Assembly (NCBI GenBank): GCA_020773975.1
Contig: GCA_020773975.1_3638.1
Length of the DNA stretch: 64,000 nucleotides
Source of the DNA: a phage
Direction: 5' to 3' (one strand)
Part shown: one piece after another, positions 1 to 40,755 of the stretch
How the letters are laid out: each line of letters opens with the position of its first letter
How positions within the stretch are numbered: position 1 is the stretch's first letter
Program-made: the position numbers and the translations under genes
Notes under the pieces: generated by a model
The model's input: the letters and a program-made list of their open reading frames with translations, nothing else
What the model was told of the DNA's origin: nothing
The model's database searches: none

Positions 1-230
1 ACTCACAAGACCCTCCACATTTCGCCATTCAAGGCTACTCTACTCACTTCTTCACATCAGGTGAGGCTGATGCTATGCTTTCGATAGTCGTTAGAGACAA
101 TTTCTTGCCTACGGGGTTAGCTCTGCCCCAACAGGGTTTAGCCTTTCTTACCAGCTTATTGTTTATTCAGCTATGCCCGTTTAGTGGAGTTATTCGACAA
201 CCATCACTGGTTGAAGGCCCAATTGTGTCT
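1..230 (-). mobile_element. Group I intron (intron A, partial, continues past window start) interrupting nrdD
   Basis: nrdD reading frame is lost after ...SLYGTP (exon ends ~231). The region carries the rc R-like motif (tcgatagtcgttag at ~91-104) and the same family motifs as introns B-D. Confidence 0.5.
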
Positions 231-692: not shown

Positions 693-942
693 CATTATGT
701 TCAGAGTGGTTCGCAAGTCCACCCCCGCACCACTACGTGCTGCTGCATGTCACCATGCAGATCAGACTATATCTTCACACTTGGTGTGTCTACCATTTCG
801 AGTGTCATCGGCTTACACCCTACTCCGCTACATTCATCACGGTTAGTCGTTAGGCATTTACGGTTGATACCGATTTAGCACGGGATTCCCTCCATAGAGG
901 ATTTCCCCGTTTAGGCAGATTTTACATGAGCAGCTATAGTTT
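693..942 (-). mobile_element. Group I intron B (250 nt, ORF-less, T4-like IA2 type core)
   Basis: On the minus strand: P cuaaacggggaaaucc, Q gggaaucccgug, R gccuaacgacuaacc, S gaagauauagucu. Exon ends with U and intron ends with G. Joining the exons gives ...VTSMG|CRSFLS..., as in T4 NrdD. Confidence 0.65.
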
Positions 943-1242: not shown

Positions 1243-1521
1243 CATTGCCCACTTTATGTTTCCATAAAGACAGACTATCTCTTAGCATCTCCTAGATGCC
1301 CTCTCCGTTTCGGAGTTGGTATTTCAACCAACCACTACACTACTGGGTTGTGCTTCACAAAATCCATTTCGCACCTTTTCGTTAGTCGTTACAACCGTCA
1401 AGCCAGATGCCTGACTGGTCACGGGATTAGCATAGCTCTATGCCTTAGCGTTCCCCGTTAGCCAGAATATATCTGACCCCACTTGTGTGGTTAGGAGAGT
1501 TTTATAACGGCCATTGTGTTA
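1243..1521 (-). mobile_element. Group I intron C (279 nt, ORF-less)
   Basis: In-frame stop directly after ...NTLMSANG; S-like gagauagucu and R-like aacgacuaacg on the minus strand; splice restores SANG|QCPF. Confidence 0.6.
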
Positions 1522-1890: not shown

Positions 1891-2220
1891 CTTGATTTTC
1901 CTACATTTTTATAGGCAATGACTATATCATAATCTCAAAAGAGATTCTCTGCTTTTCAACTGGTAGCGTCTCCAGCTTACTCCCGAAGGATAGTCGATAC
2001 ACATAACGAAGTCTCACTCAGAATTATTATCTTCACGGAGTGATACTTCGTCTTAGCACGGTATTACCTTGCCCCTTAGCCGAGGGGTTTAGGCTCCCTT
2101 ACTCATAATGCAGTCACCTGCTTCTGAACCGTTAGCACAGTTTTTACTGCACACCGCTTTGCAATCAGCGTTAACAGAGTTATTCAATACTGATCACTCA
2201 GTAAGGCCACGATGTTATTC
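1891..2220 (-). mobile_element. Group I intron D (330 nt, ORF-less)
   Basis: Frame breaks after GYGHVH. Minus strand carries R-like aucgacuaucc and S-like gauauaguc. Exon ends in U, intron ends in G. Splice restores HVH|DLDY. Confidence 0.6.
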
Positions 2221-7100: not shown

Positions 7101-7430
7101 TTCCCAATAGCCTGAATCAACCATACGGTGATAGAAATTTGGCAAACTTGGAATTTTTGTGAACCCACCAAAGGCTTCTTTATAAATCTGCCCGACTAAA
7201 ACTCTACCAGCCATCCGTGCATGTGCTTCATCTTTACGGCTAATACATGCATCTATAATAGCTTGGTTTACTTCTTTTGTTGTGCAACCATCATATAGTC
7301 TTTTATATGCGTCAAGAGCAATGTGTGACCAGTTGCCGTTGCCATCATCACCAAAAATGGCAGCTTTGTTAAGGCGTTCAGGGTCGAATACTACCTCTGA
7401 CCCATCGCTTTTAATAACTTTAGTAATCAA
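4122..7430 (-). CDS. nrdA: Ribonucleotide reductase large subunit NrdA, containing an intein
   Basis: 1102 aa, far longer than a normal NrdA. N-terminal ATP cone; active-site SSNL / CQEISLPT split by a ~331 aa insertion. Confidence 0.8.
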   Translation of the reverse strand: MITKVIKSDGSEVVFDPERLNKAAIFGDDGNGNWSHIALDAYKRLYDGCTTKEVNQAIIDACISRKDEAHARMAGRVLVGQIYKEAFGGFTKIPSLPNFYHRMVDSGYWEDMKYTGLELTALEAVIDHSKDLSYGYAVLKQFRDKYGIKDAVNDILFESPQMMFMGMAMAVMKNMPKDRRIKDVTKLYTYLSDLKINAPTPYLNGLRTGKTGYASCCVIKADDTAKSIGVAREVAYTMTVNQAGIGYYLASRSIGDGVRGNTIKHMGKLPYYRGIDAGVKENRQQSRGGSATVSFLALDPQIDELIRLRNPMTVTSKRINTMDYSVGINKSFVNRVAKNLDWMLVSYKDAPQLHDGMFTMTMEEFDSEVDKIAKDASIPKTWIKARDLAIEILTQRTETGRLYVYWTDEMNRHTPFKEIIYSSNLCVAPETEILTKDGYQTISDLKDRSVEVWNGEEWSEVVVRKTGSDQKLITVTTDSGQELVCTPYHKFYIQEGFVGKGRVIEKRAIDLQPGDKLVKFTLSQVVHGSKVLDLAYENGFYSGDGCEVSENRKLVYLYGGKKHLLSRFRGEFKISTQELQDRHTLVYKDNLKTKFFVPSSEYTLDSRLEWLAGYLDADGCVYRNGDNQQLTCASVNKNFLVKIQRLLQEVGVHSKIVLASKSGPQLLPLNNGSGDYGVFNTKDAFRLLISSTETQKLLEMGLKLYRLVLVKHKPNRNAGHFVRIVGIKDDGRRDDTYCFSEPKRHMGVFNGLLTGQCQEISLPTKGYSDMRNLFKYDAEDGEVALCFLASLVAGRVKPEEYEDVAYYTVLMIDNVMDIMTYPYENMESTVKKRRSIGVGITNVAHYIATHRVPYGSPESKQLVHDLAELHSYSLHKASLRLAKERGVCEWIGKTKYPSGWLPIDTYNKAIDSVVKDPTLKQDWESLRKEIVDFGGIRNSVLEAYMPNESSSLATNTTNGIYPVRDHVIFKKSPQGQVLFIVPDYEKLKDYYTSAWDTPTNDLIDIYALFQKFTGQAISADLYLDYTKHKDGKISMKEQLGYLIKATKVGMKTWYYLNSKVGAGDSLTAELHAKKQAEEETKKNYPLIADSSVEDPYCESCAL
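5163..6155 (-). mobile_element. Intein in NrdA (LAGLIDADG-type homing endonuclease domain)
   Basis: Starts with Cys (CVAPETEIL) directly after SSNL and ends ...HMGVFNGLLTGQ before the +1 Cys of CQEISLPT. LAGYLDADG motif present. Terminal GQ instead of the usual HN. Confidence 0.65.
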
Positions 7431-25222: not shown

Positions 25223-25253
25223 AAATAAATTTTATATAATATATTATTATATA

Positions 25254-25384
25254 TATAATACGTAGTATTATATTAAATTATATTATATAATTTATATTAT
25301 ATTAGATCATATTAAATTATATTATACGTAGTATAATATATTATATTAAATAGATCATAGTATTATAATACGTAGTATTATATT
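25254..25384. repeat. AT tract with three copies of an ~20 bp repeat containing palindromic TACGTA, and clustered GATC sites
   Basis: ataatacgtagtattatatt at ~25255 and ~25365 (exact) and a variant at ~25322. GATC at 25305, 25353, 25390 and 25413. Confidence 0.55.
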
Positions 25385-25427
25385 TAATAGATCTTATATG
25401 TTAGTTTAATTTGATCAGTTAGTATTG

Positions 25428-25471
25428 TGTCCCTGAAACGGGGACATACCCATGTCCCTGAAACGGGGACA
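25428..25471. repeat. Two tandem 19 bp hairpin repeats (tgtccc-tgaaacg-gggaca), 25 bp period
   Basis: Exact direct repeat at 25428-25446 and 25453-25471; each is an inverted repeat GTCCC/GGGAC. Confidence 0.6.
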
Positions 25472-25481
25472 TATGGGAGGG

Positions 25482-29415: not shown

Positions 29416-29488
29416 GGCCCCTTAGCTCAGTGGTTAGAGCAGGTGACTCATAATCGCTTGGTCGCTGGTTCAAGTCCAGCAGGGGCCA
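29416..29488 (+). tRNA. tRNA-Met (anticodon CAT; could be initiator, elongator or lysidine-modified Ile2)
   Basis: Cloverleaf by eye: acceptor ggcccct/aggggcc, anticodon loop cuCAUaa, T-loop ttcaagt, 3' CCA encoded. Confidence 0.75.
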
Positions 29489-29543
29489 CCAAATGTGGCA
29501 CACGAAATAAACTAGGTTTATTGTTTTCGGAGGAGAAAACTTA

Positions 29544-29867
29544 ATGGCTAAGAAACAGTCTGCTAAAAAGGTATCAGCTATCGAGGCGATCAAGCAACCT
29601 TTTCAGTTTGAATCAAAATCCACGCAGACACATTCTGCACCGCACGATGTGCGTCTTGGTGGCAAAACGCAAACTGTAGCAGTTCTGAAAAAACGCAAAG
29701 ATGAAGACGGTAATACTGAAATGTATTATGAATCTGTGTCTCGTGTCATTGGTGGTGAAGTGATTTCTGCTTCCTATCGTATCCGTACTGGGAAAACAAA
29801 GCGTGAACGAGAAGTGAAACAGAAAACAAGCACTCCTGTAGAAAACGTTAAGAAAACTAAAAAATAA
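29544..29867 (+). CDS. Hypothetical basic protein
   Basis: ORF with RBS; lysine-rich. Confidence 0.35.
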   Translation: MAKKQSAKKVSAIEAIKQPFQFESKSTQTHSAPHDVRLGGKTQTVAVLKKRKDEDGNTEMYYESVSRVIGGEVISASYRIRTGKTKREREVKQKTSTPVENVKKTKK

Positions 29868-29943
29868 TTTACTGACGAGAGTGCCACCGTGAGCCAGCGT
29901 CATTAAACAAAGGGAATCACGGACATTCAGGAGGGTTGAGATT

Positions 29944-30138
29944 ATGATAGGATCTTTGCTTAAGATTGCAAGCGATGTAACAACAACGGCTGTTGAAGTG
30001 ACTGCTGCGGTAACAACTCCGTTTGTTGATTTAGCATCAGATGCTATAGCAGCAGCAGCAGACGAGATGATTTTGTCACCGACATCTGATCTTGTCCAAG
30101 ATCTTTGTGATTCTATAAAAGATGCTGTAAAAGATTAA
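29944..30138 (+). CDS. Hypothetical small protein
   Basis: ORF only. Confidence 0.3.
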   Translation: MIGSLLKIASDVTTTAVEVTAAVTTPFVDLASDAIAAAADEMILSPTSDLVQDLCDSIKDAVKD

Positions 30139-30211
30139 AATTTTTCTTGACATAGTTTTTGTTTTTCTGTATAGTTACTTTATCAAAGCTAATTTACATA
30201 TGAGAGATTGA

Positions 30212-30859
30212 ATGTCTACTAAGATTTCCGTAACTCGTGCACTTGCTTCTATCTCTAAGATTGAAGATAAGATCAATAAGCGTATTTATAACCTTGAATG
30301 TATTAAGATTGCAAAAGGAACTGAGAATAATTGTAAGATTCCTGGTTATATCGGCTCTGTTGATGATTTTAAGAAATCTGCGATCAACGACTATCAAAGT
30401 CTGCAAGACCTCTTGGCAGTTCGCGATGAACTGAAGGCAAAAATTGTCAAGTCTAATGCTGAGACAATTGTCAAAATTGGTAAGGTGTCTATGACAGTTG
30501 CTGAGGCAATCGAACGCAAACGGACGATTTGCTTTAAACAAGAGTTGTTAAACAAACTTTGTGCACAGCGTGCTTCTGCACAGCTTCTTCTGGCAAAAGA
30601 AGAAAAATCTCTGGAAGATAAACTTGAAAATGCCAGAGCGCCATATATCCAACGTGATAAAGCGCCAGATGCAGAGCAGATTAAGACTGTGGAAGCTCCC
30701 ATTCGAATGATGAACACACCATCGGTTGTGGATCCTCTTGAACTGGCTTCTAAGATTCGTTCTCTTGAAGAAGAGATTGAAGATTTCTTGTCTAACGTTG
30801 ATTTTGCGTTGTCTGAGTCAAACGCTAAGACAGAAATTGAGATTGAGCACTCTCTCTAA
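30212..30859 (+). CDS. Hypothetical protein (coiled-coil)
   Basis: ORF only. Confidence 0.35.
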   Translation: MSTKISVTRALASISKIEDKINKRIYNLECIKIAKGTENNCKIPGYIGSVDDFKKSAINDYQSLQDLLAVRDELKAKIVKSNAETIVKIGKVSMTVAEAIERKRTICFKQELLNKLCAQRASAQLLLAKEEKSLEDKLENARAPYIQRDKAPDAEQIKTVEAPIRMMNTPSVVDPLELASKIRSLEEEIEDFLSNVDFALSESNAKTEIEIEHSL

Positions 30860-31224
30860 AAGGCTCTGATAATATCATTATCGTTCCTTTGTTTTGAAAT
30901 TTAAAACATTGCTTTTGATTAACGAAGTTTACATCATCTTGCCTCCTGGGGATTGGAGGTTAAATATTCCCCACCATGTATCGTATATGTATGAGGATAA
31001 TACAGGACATAGATGCAGCGAGGCACACTAAGATGCCTTGTTGTTTCTACTAAGTAAAAGTTCATACAATAAAGGTCAATGGTCAAATGTAAAAGATGAA
31101 ACTTGAAAGTTAATTCTTGAAAGATAAAATTTCGTTTATCATCTGAAATCCTTGGCACAGGTTATGGCTCACAAGATATGGTCTGTAAAGCCTCAAGGCT
31201 GTTAATCGGAAGCAATGTCTTATT

Positions 31225-31296
31225 GCTCGTATAGCTCAACGGTAGAGCACCTGCCTTGTAAGCAGGGGGTTGCAGGTTCGAAACCTGCTGCGAGCA
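31225..31296 (+). tRNA. tRNA-Thr (anticodon TGT)
   Basis: Anticodon loop cuUGUaa, T-loop ttcgaaa, CCA encoded. Confidence 0.7.
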
Positions 31297-31301
31297 CCAA
31301 T

Positions 31302-31398
31302 GCTGGGTAAGCCCCTTGGCAAGGGCGAGGATTTATAATCCTGAAAATAGACGGGCTAGCCGTTGAATACATAGGTGGTTCGATTCCATCGCCCAGCT
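31302..31398 (+). tRNA. Atypical tRNA-like gene (~97 nt; canonical acceptor and T-arm, anticodon not confidently assignable)
   Basis: Acceptor gctgggt/gcccagc and T-arm ggtgg-ttcgatt-ccatc are canonical; the central region holds the palindrome aggatt-TAT-aatcct and a hairpin acgg-gctag-ccgt. Confidence 0.35.
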
Positions 31399-31598
31399 AC
31401 AAGTTTGTTTTATAGTGTATTAGCTTATATTATTCGATATAAATGCCTGATCAGCATTTGTTGGGAATGAGGCATACAATGCGTGAGAAAGCTATCGGTG
31501 CGCAACGTTGATTTCAAACGTATTCATGCTCGTAGAGCACCAACTGTGGAAGTTGGGGTGAGGTTGAGTAACCATACACTATAAAGCATTCTTATTCT

Positions 31599-31672
31599 CG
31601 GGGTGTAGCTCAGTTGGATAGAGCAGCGGCCTTCTAAGCCGTAGGTCACAGGTTCGAATCCTGTCTCCTCGA
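31599..31672 (+). tRNA. tRNA-Arg (anticodon TCT)
   Basis: D-arm tagctcagttggatagagca, anticodon loop cuUCUaa, T-loop ttcgaat, CCA encoded. Confidence 0.7.
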
Positions 31673-31751
31673 CCAGATTAACCCCAACTTGAGAATCGTC
31701 AGCGCGGCTCGTAAGACCCACTCTATAGGTTCTCTACTCGGGGTACTTATT

Positions 31752-31825
31752 GCACGGTTGCCGGAATTTGGTTACGGGTCTGTCTGCAAAACGGATATAT
31801 GTCGGTTCAAGTCCGACACCGTGCT
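31752..31825 (+). tRNA. tRNA-Cys (anticodon GCA)
   Basis: Acceptor gcacggt/accgtgc, anticodon loop cuGCAaa, T-loop ttcaagt, CCA encoded. Confidence 0.6.
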
Positions 31826-31865
31826 CCAAACTTTCAATTTCTTGGTAAATATGTTAAAATACCAC

Positions 31866-31894
31866 TTGACAGATATGTTTTTATTTGATAATAT
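31866..31894 (+). promoter_or_regulatory. Sigma70-like promoter (TTGACA-17-TAATAT)
   Basis: Near-consensus hexamers with 17 bp spacer ~20 nt upstream of the RBS/ATG at 31914. Confidence 0.55.
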
Positions 31895-31913
31895 CATTAA
31901 GTGGGGTTTTAAA

Positions 31914-32261
31914 ATGGCTACCAAGCAGCTTACAAAACGTAGAAGAGGAAAAGGTCGTCCTCTGAAAGAGGAATCTAATGCAATTCAGTTAGAGAAAAAT
32001 ATCCTAGATTTGAAAACGAATCTGATTGCAATGATTCCTGAAGCTCATCAGGTTCTTAGGGATTTGATGAAGAATGTGAATACAAAAGACAATATCAGAG
32101 AAAATATCGCTCGTTATGTTATTGAGAAAGGTGAGCAGATGCTTTCTGATTACTTTGATGAGGAAAACGAAGAGTTACTCGAAAAAGATAACTCAGAAAA
32201 AGCTCCTATTAAGGCAGCTAAACCATTCTCGACGGATATTGTTCAATTCAAACAAGGTTAA
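31914..32261 (+). CDS. Hypothetical basic protein (115 aa) inside the tRNA array
   Basis: ATG with upstream promoter; the longer ORF-track start at 31689 overlaps tRNA-Cys and is rejected. Confidence 0.4.
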   Translation: MATKQLTKRRRGKGRPLKEESNAIQLEKNILDLKTNLIAMIPEAHQVLRDLMKNVNTKDNIRENIARYVIEKGEQMLSDYFDEENEELLEKDNSEKAPIKAAKPFSTDIVQFKQG

Positions 32262-32262
32262 T

Positions 32263-32349
32263 GTGTCGTTAGACCGTAGGGGTAGCTGGGGAGACTGTAA
32301 ATCTCCTGTCTCGAAAGGGACTCGGGTAGTTCGACTCTATCACGGCACA
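32263..32349 (+). tRNA. tRNA-Tyr (anticodon GTA), class II with long variable arm
   Basis: Anticodon arm ggaga-cuGUAaa-tctcc, variable arm, T-loop ttcgact, CCA encoded. Confidence 0.65.
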
Positions 32350-32420
32350 CCAACTGAATCTGTACTGGCTTTGATGTGTGACGATACCCTCCAATCGTGG
32401 TTGTTGGGCCAGTACAGTTT

Positions 32421-32493
32421 GGGAGTGTAGATCAGTTAGTAGATCGCTCGACCGATAATCGAGAGGACGTAGGGGCAGAGCCTACCACTCCCA
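32421..32493 (+). tRNA. tRNA-like, apparent anticodon GAT (Ile), with non-canonical T-loop (possible pseudo-tRNA)
   Basis: Acceptor gggagtg/cactccc, anticodon arm ctcga-ccGAUaa-tcgag (C33), T-arm gtagg-GGCAGAG-cctac lacks the TTCRA consensus. Confidence 0.4.
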
Positions 32494-32501
32494 CCAAATA
32501 T

Positions 32502-32573
32502 GCATCCATAGTTTAATTGGGAAAACTACAGCCTTCCAAGCTGAAGTCGAGGGTTCGATACCCTCTGGATGCT
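32502..32573 (+). tRNA. tRNA-Gly (anticodon TCC)
   Basis: Acceptor gcatcca/tggatgc, anticodon loop cuUCCaa, T-loop ttcgata, CCA encoded. Confidence 0.65.
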
Positions 32574-32687
32574 CCAGTTAAAAGATGTCAATGAAATCCG
32601 CTTGGGTCAACTGAAGACCGTAACAAATTCCATGGTGTTGTGTTTGCGGTCCAACACCAGACATCTTCTATCTATGTACAGGCTTGA

Positions 32688-33251
32688 GTGCGTATGAGAT
32701 ACTTGAAATATTTATCGTGGATTCTGTTAGCACCTCTTGACCCAATTATGTCGGTTCTATGTGTTATTCTGGCTCCTTTTGTTGTTCCGTTCTATAATGA
32801 GAAGACAGGGCATCTACCTTATATTTTCAGGTGGATGGAAACATATGATAATCCTATAGATGGTGACAGAGGACACATAGAGAGATGGGAAGAAGTCCGT
32901 AAAATAGGAAGTTTTGGTGTTTACCTACAACGAGTTGCTTGGTTGTGGAGAAATAAAGCCTACAATTTTTCCTATCACGTACTTGGACGTGAAATCACAT
33001 CTGTGACAAAGTGGAAAGGAAACATCCATGTAAGCTCTGATGTGGAGGATAATCAACAAGGCTATTTGTTGATGTGGAATGACAATGCGTGGGGTGTATT
33101 CGCGTTTGTCCCGTCTTTTAGATTGTTTGGAAAACAATTTTACTGGCGAATTTATGTCGGTTGGAAACTGAAGAGTGTGGTTCCTGAAGACAGAGCTTTT
33201 TCAAGAGAGAGAGTGATGTTGGCATTTTTCATAAGTCCTTTCCGAAAATAG
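32688..33251 (+). CDS. Hypothetical membrane protein inside the tRNA array
   Basis: N-terminal hydrophobic helices (LSWILLAPLDPIMSVLCVILAPFVVPF); 187 aa. Confidence 0.4.
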   Translation: MRMRYLKYLSWILLAPLDPIMSVLCVILAPFVVPFYNEKTGHLPYIFRWMETYDNPIDGDRGHIERWEEVRKIGSFGVYLQRVAWLWRNKAYNFSYHVLGREITSVTKWKGNIHVSSDVEDNQQGYLLMWNDNAWGVFAFVPSFRLFGKQFYWRIYVGWKLKSVVPEDRAFSRERVMLAFFISPFRK

Positions 33252-33256
33252 TTTTT

Positions 33257-33336
33257 AATGAGAGTAGCGTAACTTCACTGGGTGAAGGCTGGCCTCCAAA
33301 ACCAGTGACTAAGAGGTTCGATTCCTCACTCTCGTG
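33257..33336 (+). tRNA. Non-canonical tRNA-like gene with apparent 8-bp acceptor / 4-bp T-stem, 6-bp D-stem; possible anticodon CCA
   Basis: Hand fold: acceptor atgagagt/actctcgt, D hairpin cttcac-tgg-gtgaag, anticodon arm gctgg(c)-cuCCAaa-(a)ccagt, T-arm gagg-ttcgatt-cctc. No CCA encoded. Confidence 0.35.
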
Positions 33337-33340
33337 CAAA

Positions 33341-33413
33341 AGGGGATTAGCATAGTGGCCTAATGCAACGGGCTTTGACCCCGTGATCGGTTGTTCGAAT
33401 CAACCATCCCCTG
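33341..33413 (+). tRNA. tRNA-Gln (anticodon TTG)
   Basis: Acceptor aggggat/atcccct, anticodon arm acggg-cuUUGac-cccgt, T-loop ttcgaat, CCA encoded. Confidence 0.7.
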
Positions 33414-33425
33414 CCAAGTTAAAAC

Positions 33426-33512
33426 GGAGAAGCAAATCGATTGGCGACGAAAACACATTGGAAATGTGCTGACTGGTAAAACGGATTGAGAGTTCGATTC
33501 TCTCCTTCTCCG
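33426..33512 (+). tRNA. tRNA-Ser (anticodon GGA), class II
   Basis: Acceptor ggagaag/cttctcc, anticodon loop uuGGAaa, long variable region, T-arm gagag-ttcgatt-ctctc, G73, CCA encoded. Confidence 0.6.
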
Positions 33513-33549
33513 CCAGTTTTTAATTACTAAGGTATTGGAAGATTAACCC

Positions 33550-33627
33550 TAATTTGGTAAGGGGTCTCCCTGCTGAGGAGATAGTAACCCAGAAATGGGT
33601 GTGACAGTTCGATTCTGTCAGCCTCCT
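33550..33627 (+). tRNA. tRNA-like element with canonical T-arm, acceptor 3' strand and CCA but non-canonical 5' half (GNRA hairpin where the anticodon arm should be)
   Basis: T-arm gacag-ttcgatt-ctgtc, then agcctcc-t-cca; upstream hairpin accca-GAAA-tgggt. The 5' boundary is uncertain. Confidence 0.3.
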
Positions 33628-33857
33628 CCAAGTTATCTTTAATGTAGCTTGTTATTCTTACTTTAGCAGAGTAAATCTTCGGCAAGTGGCGGTAACCACT
33701 TTACCGATACCCCAGAGCAGTCCGCTCTTTACTGGCGTAAGTCAAACACTCATGATGGTCATGTAATCGTAATCTATCATTAGTGTGCCCTCCCTAGAGG
33801 GCTGTTGCGTATAGCTAATTATGTGCGAGTAATTAGCTATTTTAAAGATAATTTAAA

Positions 33858-33931
33858 GGATCTGTAGCCAAATGGTTTAAGGCACTCGACTTTTAATCGA
33901 GGGATTGTTAGTTCGAATCTAACCAGATCCA
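33858..33931 (+). tRNA. tRNA-Lys (anticodon TTT)
   Basis: Acceptor ggatctg/cagatcc, anticodon arm ctcga-cuUUUaa-tcgag, T-loop ttcgaat, CCA encoded. Confidence 0.75.
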
Positions 33932-33953
33932 CCAAAATATTCTGGTTCTTTGA

Positions 33954-34041
33954 CCGAGTGGTCGATGGTGACGGCCTGTTAAGCCGTTGGGAGGAATCTC
34001 CCCACCGAAGGTTCGAATCCTTCAGGAACCGCCAATTCTTG
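33954..34041 (+). tRNA. Class II (Ser-like, long variable arm, G73) tRNA carrying apparent anticodon GTT (Asn codons)
   Basis: Acceptor ggttctt/aggaacc, D-arm acc-gagtggtcgat-ggt, anticodon arm acggc-cuGUUaa-gccgt, variable hairpin gggag-gaat-ctccc, T-arm gaagg-ttcgaat-ccttc, G73, CCA encoded. Confidence 0.5.
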
Positions 34042-34120
34042 ACTTAATCAAGTCACAGATATCACCTAGCCAGCGATACCAGTTAGTAGATTCTGGGACA
34101 ATTAAAATCTACATCTCTCT

Positions 34121-34195
34121 CTGTCCGTAGCGCAGCTTGGGTAGCGCGGGTCACTTGGGATGATCAGGTCGTTGGTTCAAATCCAACCGGACAGA
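34121..34195 (+). tRNA. tRNA-Pro (anticodon TGG)
   Basis: D-arm gcgc-agcttgggta-gcgc, anticodon arm ggtca-cuUGGga-tgatc, T-loop ttcaaat, CCA encoded. Confidence 0.7.
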
Positions 34196-34240
34196 CCAAC
34201 AAACATATACATATCAAAGCAGAAATGTACAGAGGATACC

Positions 34241-34432
34241 ATGTTAACAGTTAAAGTCGTATCTCCAAATGATGAACAAATTTTTTGTGGCAAAATTGTT
34301 GGGTATTGTGCTCATCAAAAGTCTATAGCTATTTCAGGTATTGACCAAAAAGTGTTTTTGTCTGAGGATCAGACAGCTTATGTTATCAATGCCAATGGGA
34401 AAACTATTTCTGTGTATCGTGGAAAACCATAA
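34241..34432 (+). CDS. Hypothetical small protein (63 aa)
   Basis: ATG with SD agagga; the longer ORF-track start overlaps tRNA-Pro and is rejected. Confidence 0.35.
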   Translation: MLTVKVVSPNDEQIFCGKIVGYCAHQKSIAISGIDQKVFLSEDQTAYVINANGKTISVYRGKP

Positions 34433-34446
34433 CTGTTGATATAAAT

Positions 34447-34520
34447 GGGCGATTGATGGAATTGGTATACATGTCAGGCTTAGAACCTGAATTTTGGGGG
34501 TTCGAGTCCCTCATCGCCTA
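34447..34520 (+). tRNA. Class I tRNA with apparent anticodon TAG (Leu codon CUA) but no long variable arm; A73
   Basis: Acceptor gggcgat/atcgcct, anticodon arm tcagg-cuUAGaa-cctga, 5-nt variable loop, T-arm ggggg-ttcgagt-ccctc, CCA encoded. Confidence 0.5.
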
Positions 34521-34528
34521 CCAATCAT

Positions 34529-34601
34529 GTGACGGTAACTCAGTTGGTAGAGTGCCTTGCTGAAGACTAGGTGGTCACAGGTTCGAACCCTGTCCGTCAC
34601 A
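34529..34601 (+). tRNA. tRNA-Phe (anticodon GAA)
   Basis: Acceptor gtgacgg/ccgtcac, D-arm actc-agttggta-gagt, anticodon loop cuGAAga, T-loop ttcgaac, CCA encoded. Confidence 0.7.
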
Positions 34602-34610
34602 CCAAATTAT

Positions 34611-34686
34611 TGCAGAGTGGTGGAAATGGATTTACCATGTTAGGTTCATACCCTGAAGATTGCAGGTTCGACTCCTGCCTCTGCAT
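34611..34686 (+). tRNA. Second CAT-anticodon tRNA (Met or Ile2)
   Basis: Acceptor tgcagag/ctctgca, anticodon arm ttagg-uuCAUac-cctga, T-loop ttcgact, CCA encoded. Confidence 0.6.
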
Positions 34687-34707
34687 CCAAGAATAAGAGA
34701 GAGTATT

Positions 34708-37494: not shown

Positions 37495-38823
37495 TTGAGT
37501 AAAGTATTTGGACCTGCCAGTCCTAAACAAAAAATGATTTTGGAGAGTAAAGCCCAAATTCTAATAATTGGCGGGGCCGCCGGGTGTTTGTCTAAAGACC
37601 ACGAGGTGTTGACACCATCTGGCTGGATTAAGATATCAGAATGGTCAGGGCAGGACATTCTGCAATATGATAAAGCCACTGGGGAGGCTAAATTTATCCC
37701 TCCTTTAGAGTTTGTTAAACTCCCTTGCGACAAACTTACAAGAATAGAAGGTAATGGCATTTGTCAAGAGCTATCTGACGAACATACTGTGATTTATAAA
37801 CCAGACTATAAATCACAGCCAAGAACACTTTCTTTTTCTGAAGTGGCAGAAAGACATAACAACTCTGTTAAAAAAGGTTGGACAGGTAAGTTCATAACTA
37901 CATTTAACTATGATGGGCCTGGGATAGACATGACAGAAGGGGAATTAAGGCTTCAGGTTGCTGTCATGGCTGATGGGAGAGTTGTTAAAGAAGGGAAAGA
38001 TAATTATACACAGATGCGCTTTGCTAAAAAGCGTAAATATGACCGCTTAATCGAACTTTGTAAAAAGTTTGGATTAAGATATGAAGACAGAGGATCAAAA
38101 CCCAGTGAAAGATATACCACTGGGGAACAGTACGAGGTCATTGTATGGCCTAAATATCCTGATAAAAAATTTACAGAGAAATACTATCAGTGTTCAAATG
38201 AACAACTGGAGATAATACTTGATGAGATTTTTCATTGGGATGGTTCTTTTTGTAAGCCATATGGCGGTAAAACACATAACAGCTTTACAGGTAGATATTT
38301 TACTGCTCATAAGACGAACGCTGATTTTATTCAGTTTGTAGGATCTTCTCTTGGTTATAATACCACCATAAGCCATGACACAAGAAGTGGAAAGGACAGT
38401 TATACTGTTAATATTATGGCTAGAGGAAAAGGATTAAGGTCACTGGCTAATAAAGACAGAAAAGCTGAGTTTAAAGCGTTTACACCTACGGATGGGTTTA
38501 AATACTGCTTTGTAACACAAACAGGTTTCTTTGTTACCAGACTGGAAGATTGTGTGGTTGTCACTGGGAATAGTGGAAAATCATATCTCCTACAATTGAT
38601 GCCGCTTGCTTATGTCGATGACCCGCAGACAGCATGTATAATGTTTCGTAGGACAACACCTCAATTGACAGGTGCAGGTGGACTTTTTGATACAGCGAAA
38701 AGTATTTATTTGCAACTCGATAAGGAATGGAAGCCGAAGTTCAGGGAGAAAGCTCTGGAAGCAATTTTCCCATCTGGGGCAAAGGTGTTGTGGAGACACA
38801 TGGAGTATGAGAATAACAAATTA
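37495..38823 (+). CDS. terL: Terminase large subunit, exon 1 (contains an in-frame intein; 3' boundary ~38806-38823)
   Basis: Walker A GAAG|SGKSY restored across the intein; then ...AIFPSGAKVLWRHMEY. TTG start after GGAGG. ORF continues as intron read-through to 38841. Confidence 0.65.
37585..38571 (+). mobile_element. Intein in terminase Walker A motif (329 aa, LAGLIDADG-like domain)
   Basis: Starts Cys (CLSKDHEVLTPSGW), ends ...CVVVTGN followed by Ser. Removal gives a perfect P-loop GAAGSGKS. Confidence 0.7.
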
Positions 38824-39081
38824 GATCATCAGGGTGAATAGCTTGCCCTTCGTGCCTATAACGGTGGAACTCCCTATGGGAAAATACCGTGCCACAGAAT
38901 ATGGAAATATAAACTCTGGGTGTAACGACTATCTCCGATGAGTGTAGGAGAGTAGAATCACAAGCGATTGGTGATCCAAACGGCACGCCAAGGATGGAAG
39001 ATATAGTCTGTTCCACATGGAAACATGTGGCGGGTGTTTTAGCACACCGCCTCAGTGTAGCGAACTGAGGGGACAATAAGT
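38824..39081 (+). mobile_element. Group I intron 1 in terL (~260 nt, ORF-less; boundaries +/-17 nt)
   Basis: R-like guguaacgacuaucu (~38918) and S gaagauauagucu (~38998). The frame resumes in ...QYTFIGFDEG (Walker B-like). Confidence 0.55.
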
Positions 39082-39111
39082 TGCAATATACCTTTATAGG
39101 TTTCGATGAGG
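39082..39111 (+). CDS. terL: Terminase large subunit, micro-exon 2a (Walker B region ...QYTFIGFDEG)
   Basis: In-frame segment between two intron cores encoding a hhhhDE Walker B-like motif; stop follows within 6 codons unless spliced. Confidence 0.45.
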
Positions 39112-39462
39112 GTAGAACAGTGTGCTCTCTATAAACCCCTTTAATTGACGGGTAACTCTTTATACATATCACCACTAAGTAGGTATGGTAACATATTTAT
39201 GGTCAACGGTAATGACGTTGAGTATAGTAACAGTGTGAATGTTTAGACAATCCGCAGCGAAGCATCCCTACGGGATGAACGTTCAACGACTATCGCTTAC
39301 GGGCGTTAGGGCCAAGCGGTGAGGGAAACCTCCGGTTGATTATCAACCGCCGAAACAGGGGGGTGTGTAATAACACACAAGATATAGTCTGATCTGCATG
39401 GTGACATGCAGCAGCACGTAGTGGTGCGGGATAAGAGTAGCGATCTTATCTGAACAAAAACG
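39112..39462 (+). mobile_element. Group I intron 2 in terL (~351 nt, ORF-less)
   Basis: Q aauccgcagc (39246), R guucaacgacuaucg, S aagauauagucu (39381), then the shared block cugcauggugacaugcagcagcacguaguggugcggg. Ends in G before ACA CAA TTC... Confidence 0.6.
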
Positions 39463-39752
39463 ACACAATTCACATGGTCACAGATAGATTATCTGATATC
39501 TCGTCTACGTTCAAACTCTAAATATCCGAGCAGGATGGTTATCTCTTGTAACCCTGATCCAGATCATAAGATCAAGGAGTTGATTTCTTGGTATTTAGAT
39601 GATGAGGGATATCCTATACCTGAACGCGATGGGGTGATTAGATGGTTTATAAGACGTGACGGGGAGTTTATCTGGGGTGAATCAGAGCAAGAATTAATTG
39701 AAAAGTATTGGGATGGCAAGGATGAGAAAAGAAAGCCTAAACCACTTTCATT
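39463..39752 (+). CDS. terL: Terminase large subunit, exon 2b (TQFTWSQIDYLISRL...VISCNPDPDH...)
   Basis: Spacing and residues between Walker B and the SCNP motif mirror T4 gp17 (DE-x28-TTTPNG). ORF 39535..39846 is the tail of this exon plus intron read-through; 3' boundary +/-6 nt. Confidence 0.5.
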
Positions 39753-40755
39753 TTCCTTCATTTCCGCAACCATTAAAAGAATAGTGGCTTCATGCAGTAA
39801 TGCATGTCGAATAACTTCGTTAATTGCTGGGAAACCCTTTGTATAAGGGCAATCAGCAGCTATAATTACTTTTCCGAAACTGTAGTAGGGAGAATGTTTG
39901 AGATGAAAAATTTAGGATTTTTAGGGTATTCCCATTATTGTGCGACGTATGATGGAAGAATTTATAGTTTGTATTCCCACAAATTTTTACATCCTAATGT
40001 CCATAAGAAAACTGGCTATGCAATGTTAACGTTGTGTGAGGATGGTAAAAAGTTTCAAGTTCTTGTCCATAGGGTTATTGCTTTTGCTTTTGTCGAGAAT
40101 GATAGCCCTGATACAAAAACTCAAGTGAACCATTTAGATGGAAACAAACTTAATAACGCAGCGTGGAATCTTGAGTGGACAACTGCAAAGGAAAACACAC
40201 ATCACGCACATGAAATAGGGCTTAAGAAGTCTTATGTAAACAGTTACAGGCCTCTTGATGATAACACTGCCCTTGAGATATGCAGATTACTTGAGCAGGG
40301 TGCTAGAGTAAAGGATATCAGTGAGATGTTTGGTATTGGGCAGACTGTGGTTAGTAGTATCAAAGCTGGGAGAGTCTACCCAGACATTTCTAAAGAGTTT
40401 AATTTCAGGATGGTTCCTTCTTCCAACAGAATTAGTGAATCCAAAGTTATAGGGATATGTGAAGATCTGAGAGACGGTATCCTAAGCATTAATAAGATAT
40501 CTAAAAAATGGGGTGTTAGTTTTAATCTTGTTAGAAGAATAAAAGATAGAAAAACTTACATCTATATCTCAAACAACTATGAATGGTAATGTAGTTCAAC
40601 GACTATCCCGCAAGGGAGTAGATCGCAAGCTAATGGCGTTCGAAAAGCGAAGCACCCATTATGTGTGGGTGGTGATATAGTCTACTCTGCATGGTGACAT
40701 GCAGCAGCACGTAGTGGTGCGGGGGTTGGCGTTGCGTCCAACCTTGAATACAAGG
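39753..40755 (+). mobile_element. Group I intron 3 in terL (~1 kb) carrying an HNH homing endonuclease ORF
   Basis: P aauugcugggaaaccc (39822), Q aaucagcagc (39851), ORF in a peripheral loop, R guucaacgacuaucc (~40596), S gauauagucu (~40674), shared P9 block, ends in G. Confidence 0.6.
39894..40589 (+). CDS. Intron-encoded HNH homing endonuclease
   Basis: HNH motif QVNHLDGNKLNNAAWNLEWTTAKENTHHA plus C-terminal helix-turn-helix-like repeats; lies inside intron 3. Confidence 0.65.
   Translation: MFEMKNLGFLGYSHYCATYDGRIYSLYSHKFLHPNVHKKTGYAMLTLCEDGKKFQVLVHRVIAFAFVENDSPDTKTQVNHLDGNKLNNAAWNLEWTTAKENTHHAHEIGLKKSYVNSYRPLDDNTALEICRLLEQGARVKDISEMFGIGQTVVSSIKAGRVYPDISKEFNFRMVPSSNRISESKVIGICEDLRDGILSINKISKKWGVSFNLVRRIKDRKTYIYISNNYEW

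What the first reader, a model, noticed from the sequence alone, without database searches (positions are those of the whole stretch)
39391..39430. Near-identical ~36-40 nt block shared by introns in terL (plus strand, two copies) and nrdD intron B (minus strand)
The segment cugcauggugacaugcagcagcacguaguggugcggg occurs at 39391-39430 and 40686-40724 and as reverse complement at 721-762. The introns otherwise differ. Identity at this level between introns in different genes on opposite strands indicates recent intron mobility or gene conversion between intron copies.
Basis: seen in the sequence. Interest (0 to 1): 0.6.

Follow-up and report, generated by a model that had tools for sequence, protein, structure and literature searches.

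The report
Shared 3' hairpin block in phage introns
Three different self-splicing introns in one E. coli phage carry an identical 37-base piece of their RNA-folding scaffold; half of it is the standard sequence of this intron family, and the rest was most likely copied between the introns by short-patch recombination, a known kind of event in phages.

Summary
CTGCATGGTGACATGCAGCAGCACGTAGTGGTGCGGG occurs exactly at 39394-39430(+), 40687-40723(+) and 724-760(-), with 0 expected by chance. The copies lie in three group I introns of a Vequintavirinae coliphage (~98% identical to vB_EcoM_TH18): terL intron 2, terL intron 3 (which carries an HNH gene) and nrdD intron B.

The block is the P9 hairpin (GUGA tetraloop) plus the small P9.1 hairpin, just 3' of the P7 strand. 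The architecture is collinear with the phage T4 td intron. The first 19 nt are identical in T4 td and nrdD, so they are family consensus. P9.1 is specific to a subfamily.

Outside this 3' domain the three introns do not align. Each has site-specific orthologues (rV5 for terL, phi92 for nrdD), so they are not recent copies of one intron.

The window allele has a P9.1 loop base (GUAGUG; GUAAUG, GUAAAG and similar elsewhere) found only in this phage lineage, yet at all three non-orthologous sites. In the block the paralogues differ at 0/37 positions and the orthologues at 1-10/37. In the adjacent P9.2/tail the pattern reverses (11-19/33 against 1-7/33). That is the signature of a short gene-conversion tract of about 28-43 nt.

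This is a new example of a phenomenon known from T4 introns, of modest interest.

The parts
39394..39430 (+). Block copy in terL intron 2: P9 hairpin 39394-39411 (7 bp, GUGA tetraloop), linker CA, P9.1 hairpin 39414-39427 (GCAC/GUGC, loop GUAGUG), GGG 39428-39430
   Evidence: Exact match. Fold. The Rfam alignment places P9 at the end of the model. Compensatory changes support both helices.
40687..40723 (+). Block copy in terL intron 3
   Evidence: Exact match. It differs from rV5/YP-6/L041 terL-3 at alignment columns 24, 42 and 51, each time towards the nrdD-B state.
724..760 (-). Block copy in nrdD intron B
   Evidence: Exact match. Identical in TH18 and L049 although the flanks differ.
39114..39462 (+). 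terL intron 2 (349 nt, no ORF), inserted in the Walker B codons GAT GAG GGT|ACA
   Evidence: Rfam 67.9 bits. Precisely absent from TH18, which reads DEGTQFTW across the site. Same insertion site as the rV5 terL intron. The 5' part is 73.7% identical to rV5 and 99.2% to Av-05.
39774..40755 (+). terL intron 3 (982 nt) carrying the HNH endonuclease ORF 39804-40589
   Evidence: Rfam partial hits at 39764-39971 and 40513-40704. Exon junction ...SATI|FDNP... matched to the intronless FV3 TerL. Pfam HNH_3 30.4 bits. Precisely absent in metagenomic relatives L050 and L051.
693..942 (-). nrdD intron B (250 nt, no ORF), inserted at ...SMG|CRSFL...
   Evidence: Rfam 74.7 bits. Junction from the exon translation. 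Orthologues at the same site in TH18, phi92, PD06, A142, SYGMH1 and HMD-6. Mosaic relative to TH18.
39379..39393 (+). J8/7 + P7 3' strand ('S' element AAGAUAUAGUC) and J7/9 (UGAU) directly 5' of the block. This is universal family consensus and the likely 5' homology anchor for conversion.
   Evidence: Rfam alignment. 651 phage records match this element plus P9.
39429..39462 (+). P9.2 hairpin and 3' tail (…CUGAACAAAAACG) of terL intron 2. The sequence is site-specific and marks the 3' edge of the shared block.
   Evidence: Fold. In alignment A2 the tail differs at 11-19 of 33 positions between paralogues but at 1-7 of 33 between orthologues.
38836..39080 (+). terL intron 1 (245 nt). Same 3' architecture but another sequence (P9 CCACAUGGAAACAUGUGG), so it is not part of the identical set.
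   Evidence: Rfam 33.9 bits. Junction HQG|LQY matched to FV3. Absent in L050.
1243..1521 (-). nrdD intron '2' (279 nt). It has P9 CUUUAUGGAAACAUAAAG and no P9.1/P9.2, and it lacks the block.
   Evidence: Rfam 41.3 bits. Junction ANG|QCPF. Absent in TH18.
1891..2220 (-). nrdD intron A (330 nt); lacks the block
   Evidence: Rfam 21.7 bits, E=0.023. Junction HVH|DLD. Absent in TH18.
1..230 (-). 5' part of a fourth nrdD intron (D), cut by the window edge
   Evidence: Exon 4 ends ...SLYGTP at position 231, compared with uninterrupted SYGMH1 NrdD. Its 5' end is 78% identical to the terL-3 5' end (I4, 53).

Best explanation
The block is the P9 + P9.1 part of the 3' peripheral domain (P7'-P9-P9.1-P9.2-3' splice site) of three T4-td-type group I introns. 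P9 is a 7-bp helix capped by a GNRA tetraloop. By established knowledge of group I introns, not tested here, such a tetraloop docks on the P5 region and helps hold the ribozyme core together. P9.1 is a 4-bp hairpin with a 6-nt loop. Strong functional constraint keeps most of this sequence nearly invariant across many phages.

On top of that constraint, in the lineage of this phage a short tract was homogenised among the three non-orthologous introns. The tract runs from P9 to the GGG after P9.1, a minimum of 28 nt and a maximum of about 43 nt. The mechanism inferred is homologous recombination or gene conversion during phage replication, anchored on the universally conserved P7'/P9 sequence. 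nrdD-B has the phi92-like state plus one private mutation and is the most likely source type. terL-3 is the clearest recipient, with three derived states.

Shown: the structure, the distribution, and the incongruence between block and flanks. Inferred: the conversion event, its direction, and the role of the tetraloop.
For: Structure. The Rfam alignment ends in P9. The three hairpins P9, P9.1 and P9.2 fold as such in terL-2 and terL-3; in nrdD-B P9 is predicted but the lowest-energy fold draws P9.1 and P9.2 differently. In 22 sequences, 99.6% of cells pair, and 6 of 11 pairs show changes on both sides; 0 of 500 shuffles reach that. The domain is collinear with T4 td.

Generic half. The P7' strand + P9 matches 651 phage records, and T4 td and nrdD match exactly over P9.

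Conversion.
(i) Column 42 is G in all three window copies and both TH18 copies, but A in all 14 outside GCAC-type sequences.
(ii) No phage record holds the exact 52-mer; the best outsiders reach 98.1%. Exact scans find the allele only in Av-05 in IMG/VR, in three metagenome contigs that are 91-99% identical to the window over their aligned segments, and in no GTDB genome.
(iii) Block differences are 0/37 between paralogues and 1-10/37 between orthologues. For the adjacent tail they are 11-19/33 between paralogues and 1-7/33 between orthologues.
(iv) Window terL-3 differs from rV5/YP-6/L041 terL-3 at L9 (GUAA to GUGA), at the P9.1 loop and at GCGGA to GCGGG. All three changes go towards nrdD-B, while its site-specific J7/9 (UACU) and P9.2 are retained.
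(v) Window intron B is a mosaic. Its P7-P8 region and tail are A142-like (2/67 and 1/31 differences), whereas TH18 differs there at 16/67 and 4/31. The block in between is the lineage allele, with 0/37 differences to TH18.
(vi) Independent assemblies (TH18, 18-1-2, OVXI01, ERZ1090862) show the same allele.
Against: The block is highly constrained. Only 11 of 37 columns vary among outsiders, and 0-difference pairs occur between unrelated introns in unrelated phages (YP-6 terL-3 and L036), so identity alone is weak evidence. The case rests mainly on one private base (G42) plus three states in terL-3. Homogenisation is not general: in the Vequintavirus genomes A142 and YP-6, nrdD-B and terL-3 differ at 3-4 block positions. 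The mosaic of intron B could come from patchy repair of a single inter-phage exchange rather than from a paralogue donor. In Av-05, terL-3 reads GUAGCG, one base off. No formal conversion test (such as GENECONV) was run, and there is no experiment.
Confidence: 0.65

Rival explanations
1. Pure purifying selection on an old shared sequence. The three 3' domains descend from one ancient td-type domain and have simply not diverged. The private G in the P9.1 loop arose in parallel or is tolerated noise.
For: P9 is identical to that of T4 td and nrdD across virus families. Only 11 of 37 columns vary, and unrelated introns can be identical over all 37 nt.
Against: This reading needs the same A-to-G change at one loop position in two or three copies, plus two further parallel changes in terL-3, all within one lineage and nowhere else among 50,697 phage records, IMG/VR, 241 million metagenome records and GTDB genomes. 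Loops and linkers vary elsewhere (L9 reads GUGA, GGGA, GAGA, GCGA or GUAA), so they are not frozen.
Confidence: 0.15
2. Selection for a shared trans-acting partner. A phage-encoded or host factor (protein or RNA) recognises P9/P9.1, so all introns of one genome must carry the same allele. This would be co-evolution rather than neutral conversion.
For: The block is identical including loop bases, in introns of two essential genes. The allele is lineage-specific.
Against: No candidate factor was identified. The other four introns of the same genome (terL-1, nrdD-A, nrdD-2 and probably D) lack the block. A142 and YP-6 tolerate different alleles within one genome. No conserved complementary partner for the P9.1 loop was found within the introns. 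Even under this reading, spread of the allele would still need conversion.
Confidence: 0.1
3. Recent transposition or homing of one intron into three sites.
For: Introns are gained and lost within this lineage. TH18 lacks terL-2, nrdD-A and nrdD-2; L050 lacks terL-1 and terL-3 and has an extra intron; L051 lacks terL-3. terL-3 carries an HNH gene.
Against: Outside the 3' domain the three introns share no alignable sequence. Each has a diverged orthologue at the same site in rV5/A142 or phi92, with site-specific P9.2 and body.
Confidence: 0.03
4. Assembly or polishing artefact that made short repeats look identical.
For: The Av-05 record is scrambled exactly at the block, which shows that the repeat can disturb assemblies.
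Against: Five isolate records (TH18, three marmot isolates and, scrambled, Av-05) and contigs from two metagenome assemblies carry the same allele at the same sites with different intron contents. A 37-50-nt repeat is shorter than sequencing reads.
Confidence: 0.02

Closest known systems
Phage T4 td, nrdD (sunY) and nrdB introns: homologous sequence blocks and recombination between them. Sources: Shub et al. 1988 PNAS 85:1151 (cited in PMC2988022); Hall, Liu & Shub 1989 Nature 340:574 (citation seen); Bryk & Belfort 1990 Nature, from memory and not verifiable here.
   Same: Several td-type group I introns in different genes of one phage share near-identical core and 3' blocks. P7'+P9 (AGAUAUAGUCUG..CUGCAUGGUGACAUGCAGC) is literally the same sequence as in T4 td and nrdD. 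The P9-P9.1-P9.2-UGAACAUAAUG layout is collinear with td. Recombination between such blocks is documented for T4.
   Different: The phage family differs (Vequintavirinae) and so do the host genes (terL, and another site in nrdD). P9.1 is of another sequence type (GCAC...GUGC against td CUGG...CCGG). Here the evidence is comparative (concerted evolution of a 28-43-nt patch), not genetic crosses.
rV5 terminase large-subunit introns (Kropinski et al. 2013, PMC3606486)
   Same: Same two insertion sites as window terL-2 and terL-3, and the same HNH gene in the second intron.
   Different: rV5 lacks terL-1 and, judging from inteinless FV3 and rV5's 142-aa first exon, the TerL intein. Its two introns have different block alleles: terL-2 GAGA with GCCUGAGAAUGGC, terL-3 GUAA with GUAAAG. 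They are therefore not homogenised.
phi92 / Justusliebigvirus nrdD intron (annotated spliced NrdD, NC_023693)
   Same: Same insertion site as window nrdD-B. The block differs by one base, GUAAUG instead of GUAGUG.
   Different: Only one block-bearing intron per genome was detected, so there is no paralogue to convert with.
Staphylococcus phage Twort orf142 with three group I introns (Landthaler & Shub 1999 PNAS 96:7005; citation seen)
   Same: One phage gene interrupted by three group I introns, and an intron-rich genome.
   Different: A Gram-positive phage; sequence relationship not examined here.

Membership tests
Group I intron (Rfam RF00028) | Covariance-model score at or above the gathering threshold (50 bits) | tested here: met
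   nrdD-B 74.7 bits and terL-2 67.9 bits. terL-3 scores only 31.6 + 21.4 bits as two partial hits because the HNH ORF splits it. For terL-3 this feature alone is therefore inconclusive.
Group I intron (Rfam RF00028) | 5' exon ends in U, intron ends in G, and removal restores the reading frame of a conserved protein | tested here: met
   terL-2 GGU|A...CG|ACA restores DEGTQFTW. terL-3 AU|U...GG|AUU restores SATIFDNP. nrdD-B GGU|A...UG|UGU restores SMGCRSFL. All were compared with uninterrupted FV3 TerL, SYGMH1 NrdD and TH18.
Group I intron (Rfam RF00028) | Precise presence/absence at the site in close relatives | tested here: met
   terL-2 is absent from TH18. terL-3 is absent from L050 and L051. 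nrdD-B was present in all relatives examined.
Group I intron (Rfam RF00028) | Self-splicing with guanosine cofactor | not testable with these tools
   Needs in vitro transcription and splicing, or RT-PCR of infected cells.
T4 td-type (subgroup IA2) phage introns | Extra P7.1/P7.2 hairpins between P7 and P3' | tested here: met
   The Rfam alignments show unaligned insertions of 40-63 nt directly after GACUA (J6/7-P7) in all three introns. Assigning them to P7.1/P7.2 is an inference.
T4 td-type (subgroup IA2) phage introns | 3' domain P9 (GNRA) - P9.1 - P9.2 - UGAAYAUAAUG collinear with td | tested here: met
   Almost gap-free alignment with T4 td (M12742) over 84 columns. The helices are supported by compensatory changes.
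Mobile intron with homing endonuclease | Intron-encoded endonuclease ORF | tested here: not met
   Only terL-3 has one (HNH_3, 30.4 bits against a cut-off of 24.8). terL-2 (349 nt) and nrdD-B (250 nt) have no room for an ORF. The nrdD-B orthologues in A142, SYGMH1 and HMD-6 are 762 nt and carry an annotated homing endonuclease.
Concerted evolution / gene conversion between paralogous sequences | Paralogues within a genome are more alike than orthologues across genomes in the tract, with the reverse in the flanks | tested here: met
   Block: 0/37 against 1-10/37. Tail: 11-19/33 against 1-7/33.
Concerted evolution / gene conversion between paralogous sequences | A derived, lineage-private state shared by the paralogues | tested here: met
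   G at alignment column 42 occurs only in this lineage.
Concerted evolution / gene conversion between paralogous sequences | Formal statistical support (GENECONV or similar) on a dense sample | not tested
   Only about 22 sequences were assembled, and very few informative sites lie in the tract.

The most novel reading that the evidence does not exclude
The P9-P9.1 module is kept identical in the terL and nrdD introns because it is read by a common lineage-specific factor (a splicing cofactor or regulator, or a nuclease) that couples or controls splicing of a packaging gene and a nucleotide-metabolism gene. The private GUAGUG allele would then mark co-evolution with that factor rather than neutral conversion.
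Probability: 0.06. Interest if true: 0.6.

Novelty: new member of a known kind. Interest (0 to 1): 0.3.

Why it matters
The case shows a ribozyme evolving module by module. A 28-43-nt structural subdomain was exchanged between otherwise unrelated introns sitting 1.3 kb and about 39-40 kb apart in one phage genome, while the neighbouring hairpin kept its site-specific history.

There are three practical consequences. First, intron phylogenies built on the conserved 3' domain will mislead. Second, the repeats can break assemblies, and the Av-05 record is scrambled exactly there. Third, the inverted and direct copies are potential substrates for lethal rearrangements of terL and nrdD.

The region is also an unusually dense nest of selfish elements: at least 4 introns in nrdD, 3 introns plus an intein-like insert in terL, and an intein in nrdA. 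Presence and absence of these elements vary among isolates that are 96-99% identical. That makes the lineage a good natural system for studying intron gain and loss, but not a new principle.

Tried and rejected
(1) I looked for a conserved complementary partner of the P9.1 loop inside each intron, as a kissing-loop explanation for allele sharing. Only inconsistent 5-mers turned up, some of them in the J6/7-P7 element that already pairs with P7'.

(2) I asked whether the L9 change GUAA to GUGA in terL-3 is matched by a change in the P5 receptor. By eye on the Rfam alignment, P5 of terL-3 (CCCUU/AAGGG) contains both CC:GG and CU:AG steps, so this cannot discriminate.

(3) The search for related loci in IMG/VR with NrdD exon 4 and TerL exon 4 returned only 8 and 15 loci, most without these introns. 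I used phage-database hits and pattern scans instead.

(4) An apparent reverse-strand copy of the block in the TH18 terL locus was an artefact of two loci sharing one FASTA file. It is the TH18 nrdD-B copy.

(5) The idea that the P9.1 loop tracks the genome generally was rejected. YP-6 has GUAAAG in nrdD-B but GUAAUG in terL-3.

(6) The hairpin GGAUUCGAUAAUCC after terL-3 P9.2 is exon sequence, since intronless phages align from about 40756.

(7) Literature: Shub 1988 (PMC279724) is not held. Bryk & Belfort 1990 was not found by title. No paper on concerted evolution of phage introns was found.

Full report
**1. Observation**

The 37-mer CTGCATGGTGACATGCAGCAGCACGTAGTGGTGCGGG occurs exactly three times: at 39394-39430(+), 40687-40723(+) and 724-760(-). 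None of 100 dinucleotide-preserving shuffles gave a match, even with 3 mismatches allowed (sequences read).

Pairwise identity extends further. terL intron 2 and nrdD intron B share 52 exact nt. nrdD-B and terL intron 3 share 40 exact nt.

All-against-all blastn of the seven introns finds only this 3' domain (50-81 nt), a 14-nt J6/7-P7 element and two weaker patches. There is no other copy in the window.

**2. Context**

The window comes from an E. coli phage of the Vequintavirinae. It is about 98% identical to vB_EcoM_TH18 and the marmot phages 18-1-2, 19-1-2 and 24-2-1, and it is related to Av-05.

I fixed the intron boundaries from exon translations compared with uninterrupted homologues (FV3 TerL, SYGMH1 NrdD) and with TH18:

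| Intron | Coordinates | Notes |
|---|---|---|
| terL-1 | 38836-39080 | followed by a 33-nt exon, 39081-39113 |
| terL-2 | 39114-39462 | |
| terL-3 | 39774-40755 | HNH ORF 39804-40589 (Pfam HNH_3) |
| nrdD-A | 2220→1891 | minus strand |
| nrdD-2 | 1521→1243 | minus strand |
| nrdD-B | 942→693 | minus strand |
| nrdD-D | from 230 | runs off the window start |

Rfam RF00028 scores are 74.7 bits (nrdD-B), 67.9 (terL-2), 41.3 (nrdD-2), 33.9 (terL-1), 31.6 + 21.4 (terL-3) and 21.7 (nrdD-A).

**3. What the block is**

In the Rfam alignments the block starts 4 nt after the P7 3' strand (AAGAUAUAGUC). Its first 18 nt are P9, a 7-bp helix with a GUGA tetraloop. The next element is a 4-bp hairpin, GCAC-GUAGUG-GUGC, here called P9.1. 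It is followed by GGG, then by a third hairpin (P9.2) whose sequence differs between the three introns, and then by UGAAYA...G at the 3' splice site.

An alignment of 22 such 3' domains from nine isolate phages, seven metagenomic contigs and the window is almost gap-free and includes T4 td. P9 and P9.1 pair in 99.6% of cells. Six of 11 pairs show changes on both sides, and 0 of 500 shuffles reach that.

These are therefore td-type introns with the classical P9-P9.1-P9.2 peripheral domain. That an L9 GNRA loop docks on P5 is textbook knowledge for group I introns and was not tested here.

**4. How generic is it?**

P7' + P9 matches 651 phage records (826 places), including T4 td and nrdD, phiKZ-like Pseudomonas phages, and Vibrio, Bacillus and Pectobacterium phages. 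T4 td and nrdD read CUGCAUGGUGACAUGCAGC exactly. The first 19 nt of the block are thus family consensus.

The full 52 nt (≥80% of the query covered) is found in only 91 records:
- phi92-like nrdD introns, 98.1% identical;
- Vequintavirus nrdD and terL introns, 90-96% identical;
- a Vibrio phage capsid-gene intron, 92% identical;
- the Vibrio phage qdvp001 terL intron, 83% identical.

Among 14 outside sequences with the GCAC-type P9.1, only 11 of 37 columns vary. Identical 37-mers also occur between unrelated introns of unrelated phages, for example YP-6 terL-3 and metagenomic L036.

**5. Not recent copies of one intron**

Each intron has a site-specific orthologue elsewhere.
- rV5 and A142 have introns at exactly the terL-2 and terL-3 sites. 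This is already described for rV5 (PMC3606486).
- The 5' 266 nt of window terL-2 is 73.7% identical to rV5, about the same as the flanking exons (~75%).
- phi92, PD06, A142, SYGMH1, HMD-6, L037 and L045 have nrdD-B at the same site.
- P9.2 and the 3' tail follow the insertion site: orthologues differ at 1-7 of 33 positions, window paralogues at 11-19 of 33.

**6. Evidence for conversion of the block**

(i) The window allele has G at alignment column 42 (loop GUAGUG). All 14 outsiders have A there (GUAAUG, GUAAAG, GUGAAG, GUAACG).

(ii) The allele is private to this phage lineage.
- No phage record holds the exact 52-mer.
- An IMG/VR pattern scan finds G at that position only in Av-05.
- An exact scan of 241 million metagenome records finds three contigs, all 91-99% identical to the window over their aligned segments.
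- GTDB genomes hold none.

(iii) Within the lineage the allele nevertheless sits at three non-orthologous sites: nrdD-B and terL-3 in TH18; nrdD-B and terL-2 in the OVXI01 contigs (L049, L050); terL-2 in the ERZ1090862 contig L051; and all three in the window.

(iv) Window and TH18 terL-3 differ from rV5, YP-6 and L041 terL-3 at L9 (GUAA to GUGA), at the P9.1 loop and at GCGGA to GCGGG. All three changes go towards the nrdD-B state. The site-specific J7/9 (UACU) and P9.2 are kept. This bounds the tract between 28 nt (columns 24-51) and about 43 nt.

(v) In the block, window paralogues differ at 0/37 positions and orthologues at 1-10/37, the reverse of the tail.

The simplest reading is one mutation followed by short-patch gene conversion between intron copies, anchored on the invariant P7'/P9 sequence.

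Recombination between homologous blocks of different T4 introns has been demonstrated genetically. Hall, Liu & Shub 1989 is cited in a paper seen. Bryk & Belfort 1990 is from memory.

**7. Caveats**

- Homogenisation is episodic. In A142 and YP-6, nrdD-B and terL-3 differ at 3-4 block positions.
- Av-05 terL-3 reads GUAGCG.
- The number of informative sites is small, and no formal conversion test was run.
- A selective reading (a common trans factor) cannot be excluded. But the four other introns of the genome lack the block, and no conserved partner for the loop was found.

**8. Intron B is itself a mosaic**

Against TH18 the flanking exons are 97-98% identical, but intron B is only 89% identical.

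| Intron B positions | Differences to TH18 | Differences to A142 |
|---|---|---|
| 1-100 | 3 | 20 |
| 101-167 | 16 | 2 |
| Block (183-219) | 0 | 3 |
| Tail (220-250) | 4 | 1 |

The lineage allele is therefore an island inside imported sequence. This fits reconversion from a paralogue, or patchy repair during one inter-phage exchange. Either way it shows that recombination breakpoints cluster at this conserved block.

**9. Intron turnover in the lineage**

TH18 lacks terL-2, nrdD-A and nrdD-2 precisely. L050 lacks terL-1 and terL-3 and has an extra intron at the equivalent of about window 41450. L051 lacks terL-3. Mobility or loss of introns is thus recent and real, but it is a separate matter from the shared block.

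**10. Verdict**

It is a new example of a known kind of event, comparable to the homologous blocks and inter-intron recombination of the T4 introns. Interest is about 0.3.

Noticed in passing
window 37495-38835 (+): TerL exon 1 carries an intein-like insertion of about 335 aa in the Walker A P-loop: GGAAG|CLSKDHEV...VVVTGN|SGKS. Inteinless FV3 TerL reads GGAAGSGKS at this point. Pfam detects no domain in it.
   Followed up: partly
window 4122-7430 (-): The NrdA ORF is 1102 aa. It contains an intein with a LAGLIDADG endonuclease domain: Intein_splicing and LAGLIDADG_3 hits at about aa 439-745, inside the RNR barrel domain.
   Followed up: partly
window 39081-39113 (+): A 33-nt micro-exon encoding the TerL Walker B motif (LQYTFIGFDEG) lies between introns terL-1 and terL-2. 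One gene thus holds an intein-like insert, three group I introns and an HNH gene.
   Followed up: yes
L011 1-602 and L038 11844-12443 (Av-05, NC_025830 / IMGVR_UViG_2706795553): The Av-05 record is scrambled exactly at the block. The record start lies within terL-2 P9. An inverted piece (window 39409-39860) is joined to 40682 onward through a palindromic junction, reverse-complement block to block. This is probably repeat-induced misassembly; the genome is also about 13 kb shorter than TH18.
   Followed up: partly
L050 ~6685-6962 (OVXI01000004.1), equivalent to window ~41450: A close metagenomic relative has an additional group I intron in terL exon 4 that the window lacks. It has the same P7'+P9 sequence but a different P9.1 (AUCAACAAUUUGUUGAU). 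The same contig lacks terL-1 and terL-3, and the intein region also differs in length.
   Followed up: partly
window 693-942 (-) versus L002 (TH18) and L026 (A142): nrdD intron B is a recombinant. Its 5' third matches its own lineage, while P7-P8 and P9.2 match Vequintavirus (A142-like) introns. Intron identity to TH18 is 89%, against 97-98% in the exons.
   Followed up: yes
alignment A2 columns ~58-66 (e.g. window 39437-39443): The P9.2 loop keeps a consensus nUWRCGA (CUUGCGA, GUAGCGA, UUAACGA) at all insertion sites and in T4 td, although the stem varies with compensation. It may be a tertiary-contact motif.
   Followed up: no
window 25224-25473: An AT-rich repeat region (43-nt family x5, with 59-nt inverted arms) is followed by two perfect 21-nt direct repeats, TGTCCCTGAAACGGGGACATA, at 25428 and 25453. 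Each repeat is a small hairpin.
   Followed up: no
window 29416-34689 (+): Cluster of 15 tRNA genes: Met x2, Ser x2, Thr, Arg, Cys, Tyr, Gly, Gln, Lys, Asn, Pro, Leu and Phe.
   Followed up: no
window 181-224 (-) and 39780-39823 (+): The 5' end of the truncated nrdD intron D is about 75-78% identical to the 5' end of terL-3. This is a second, weaker inter-intron similarity.
   Followed up: no
phage database records MG0656xx ('Campylobacter phage A142' and others): Records labelled as unverified Campylobacter phages are Vequintavirus or phi92-like coliphage genomes by sequence and by taxonomy line. The host labels look unreliable.
   Followed up: no
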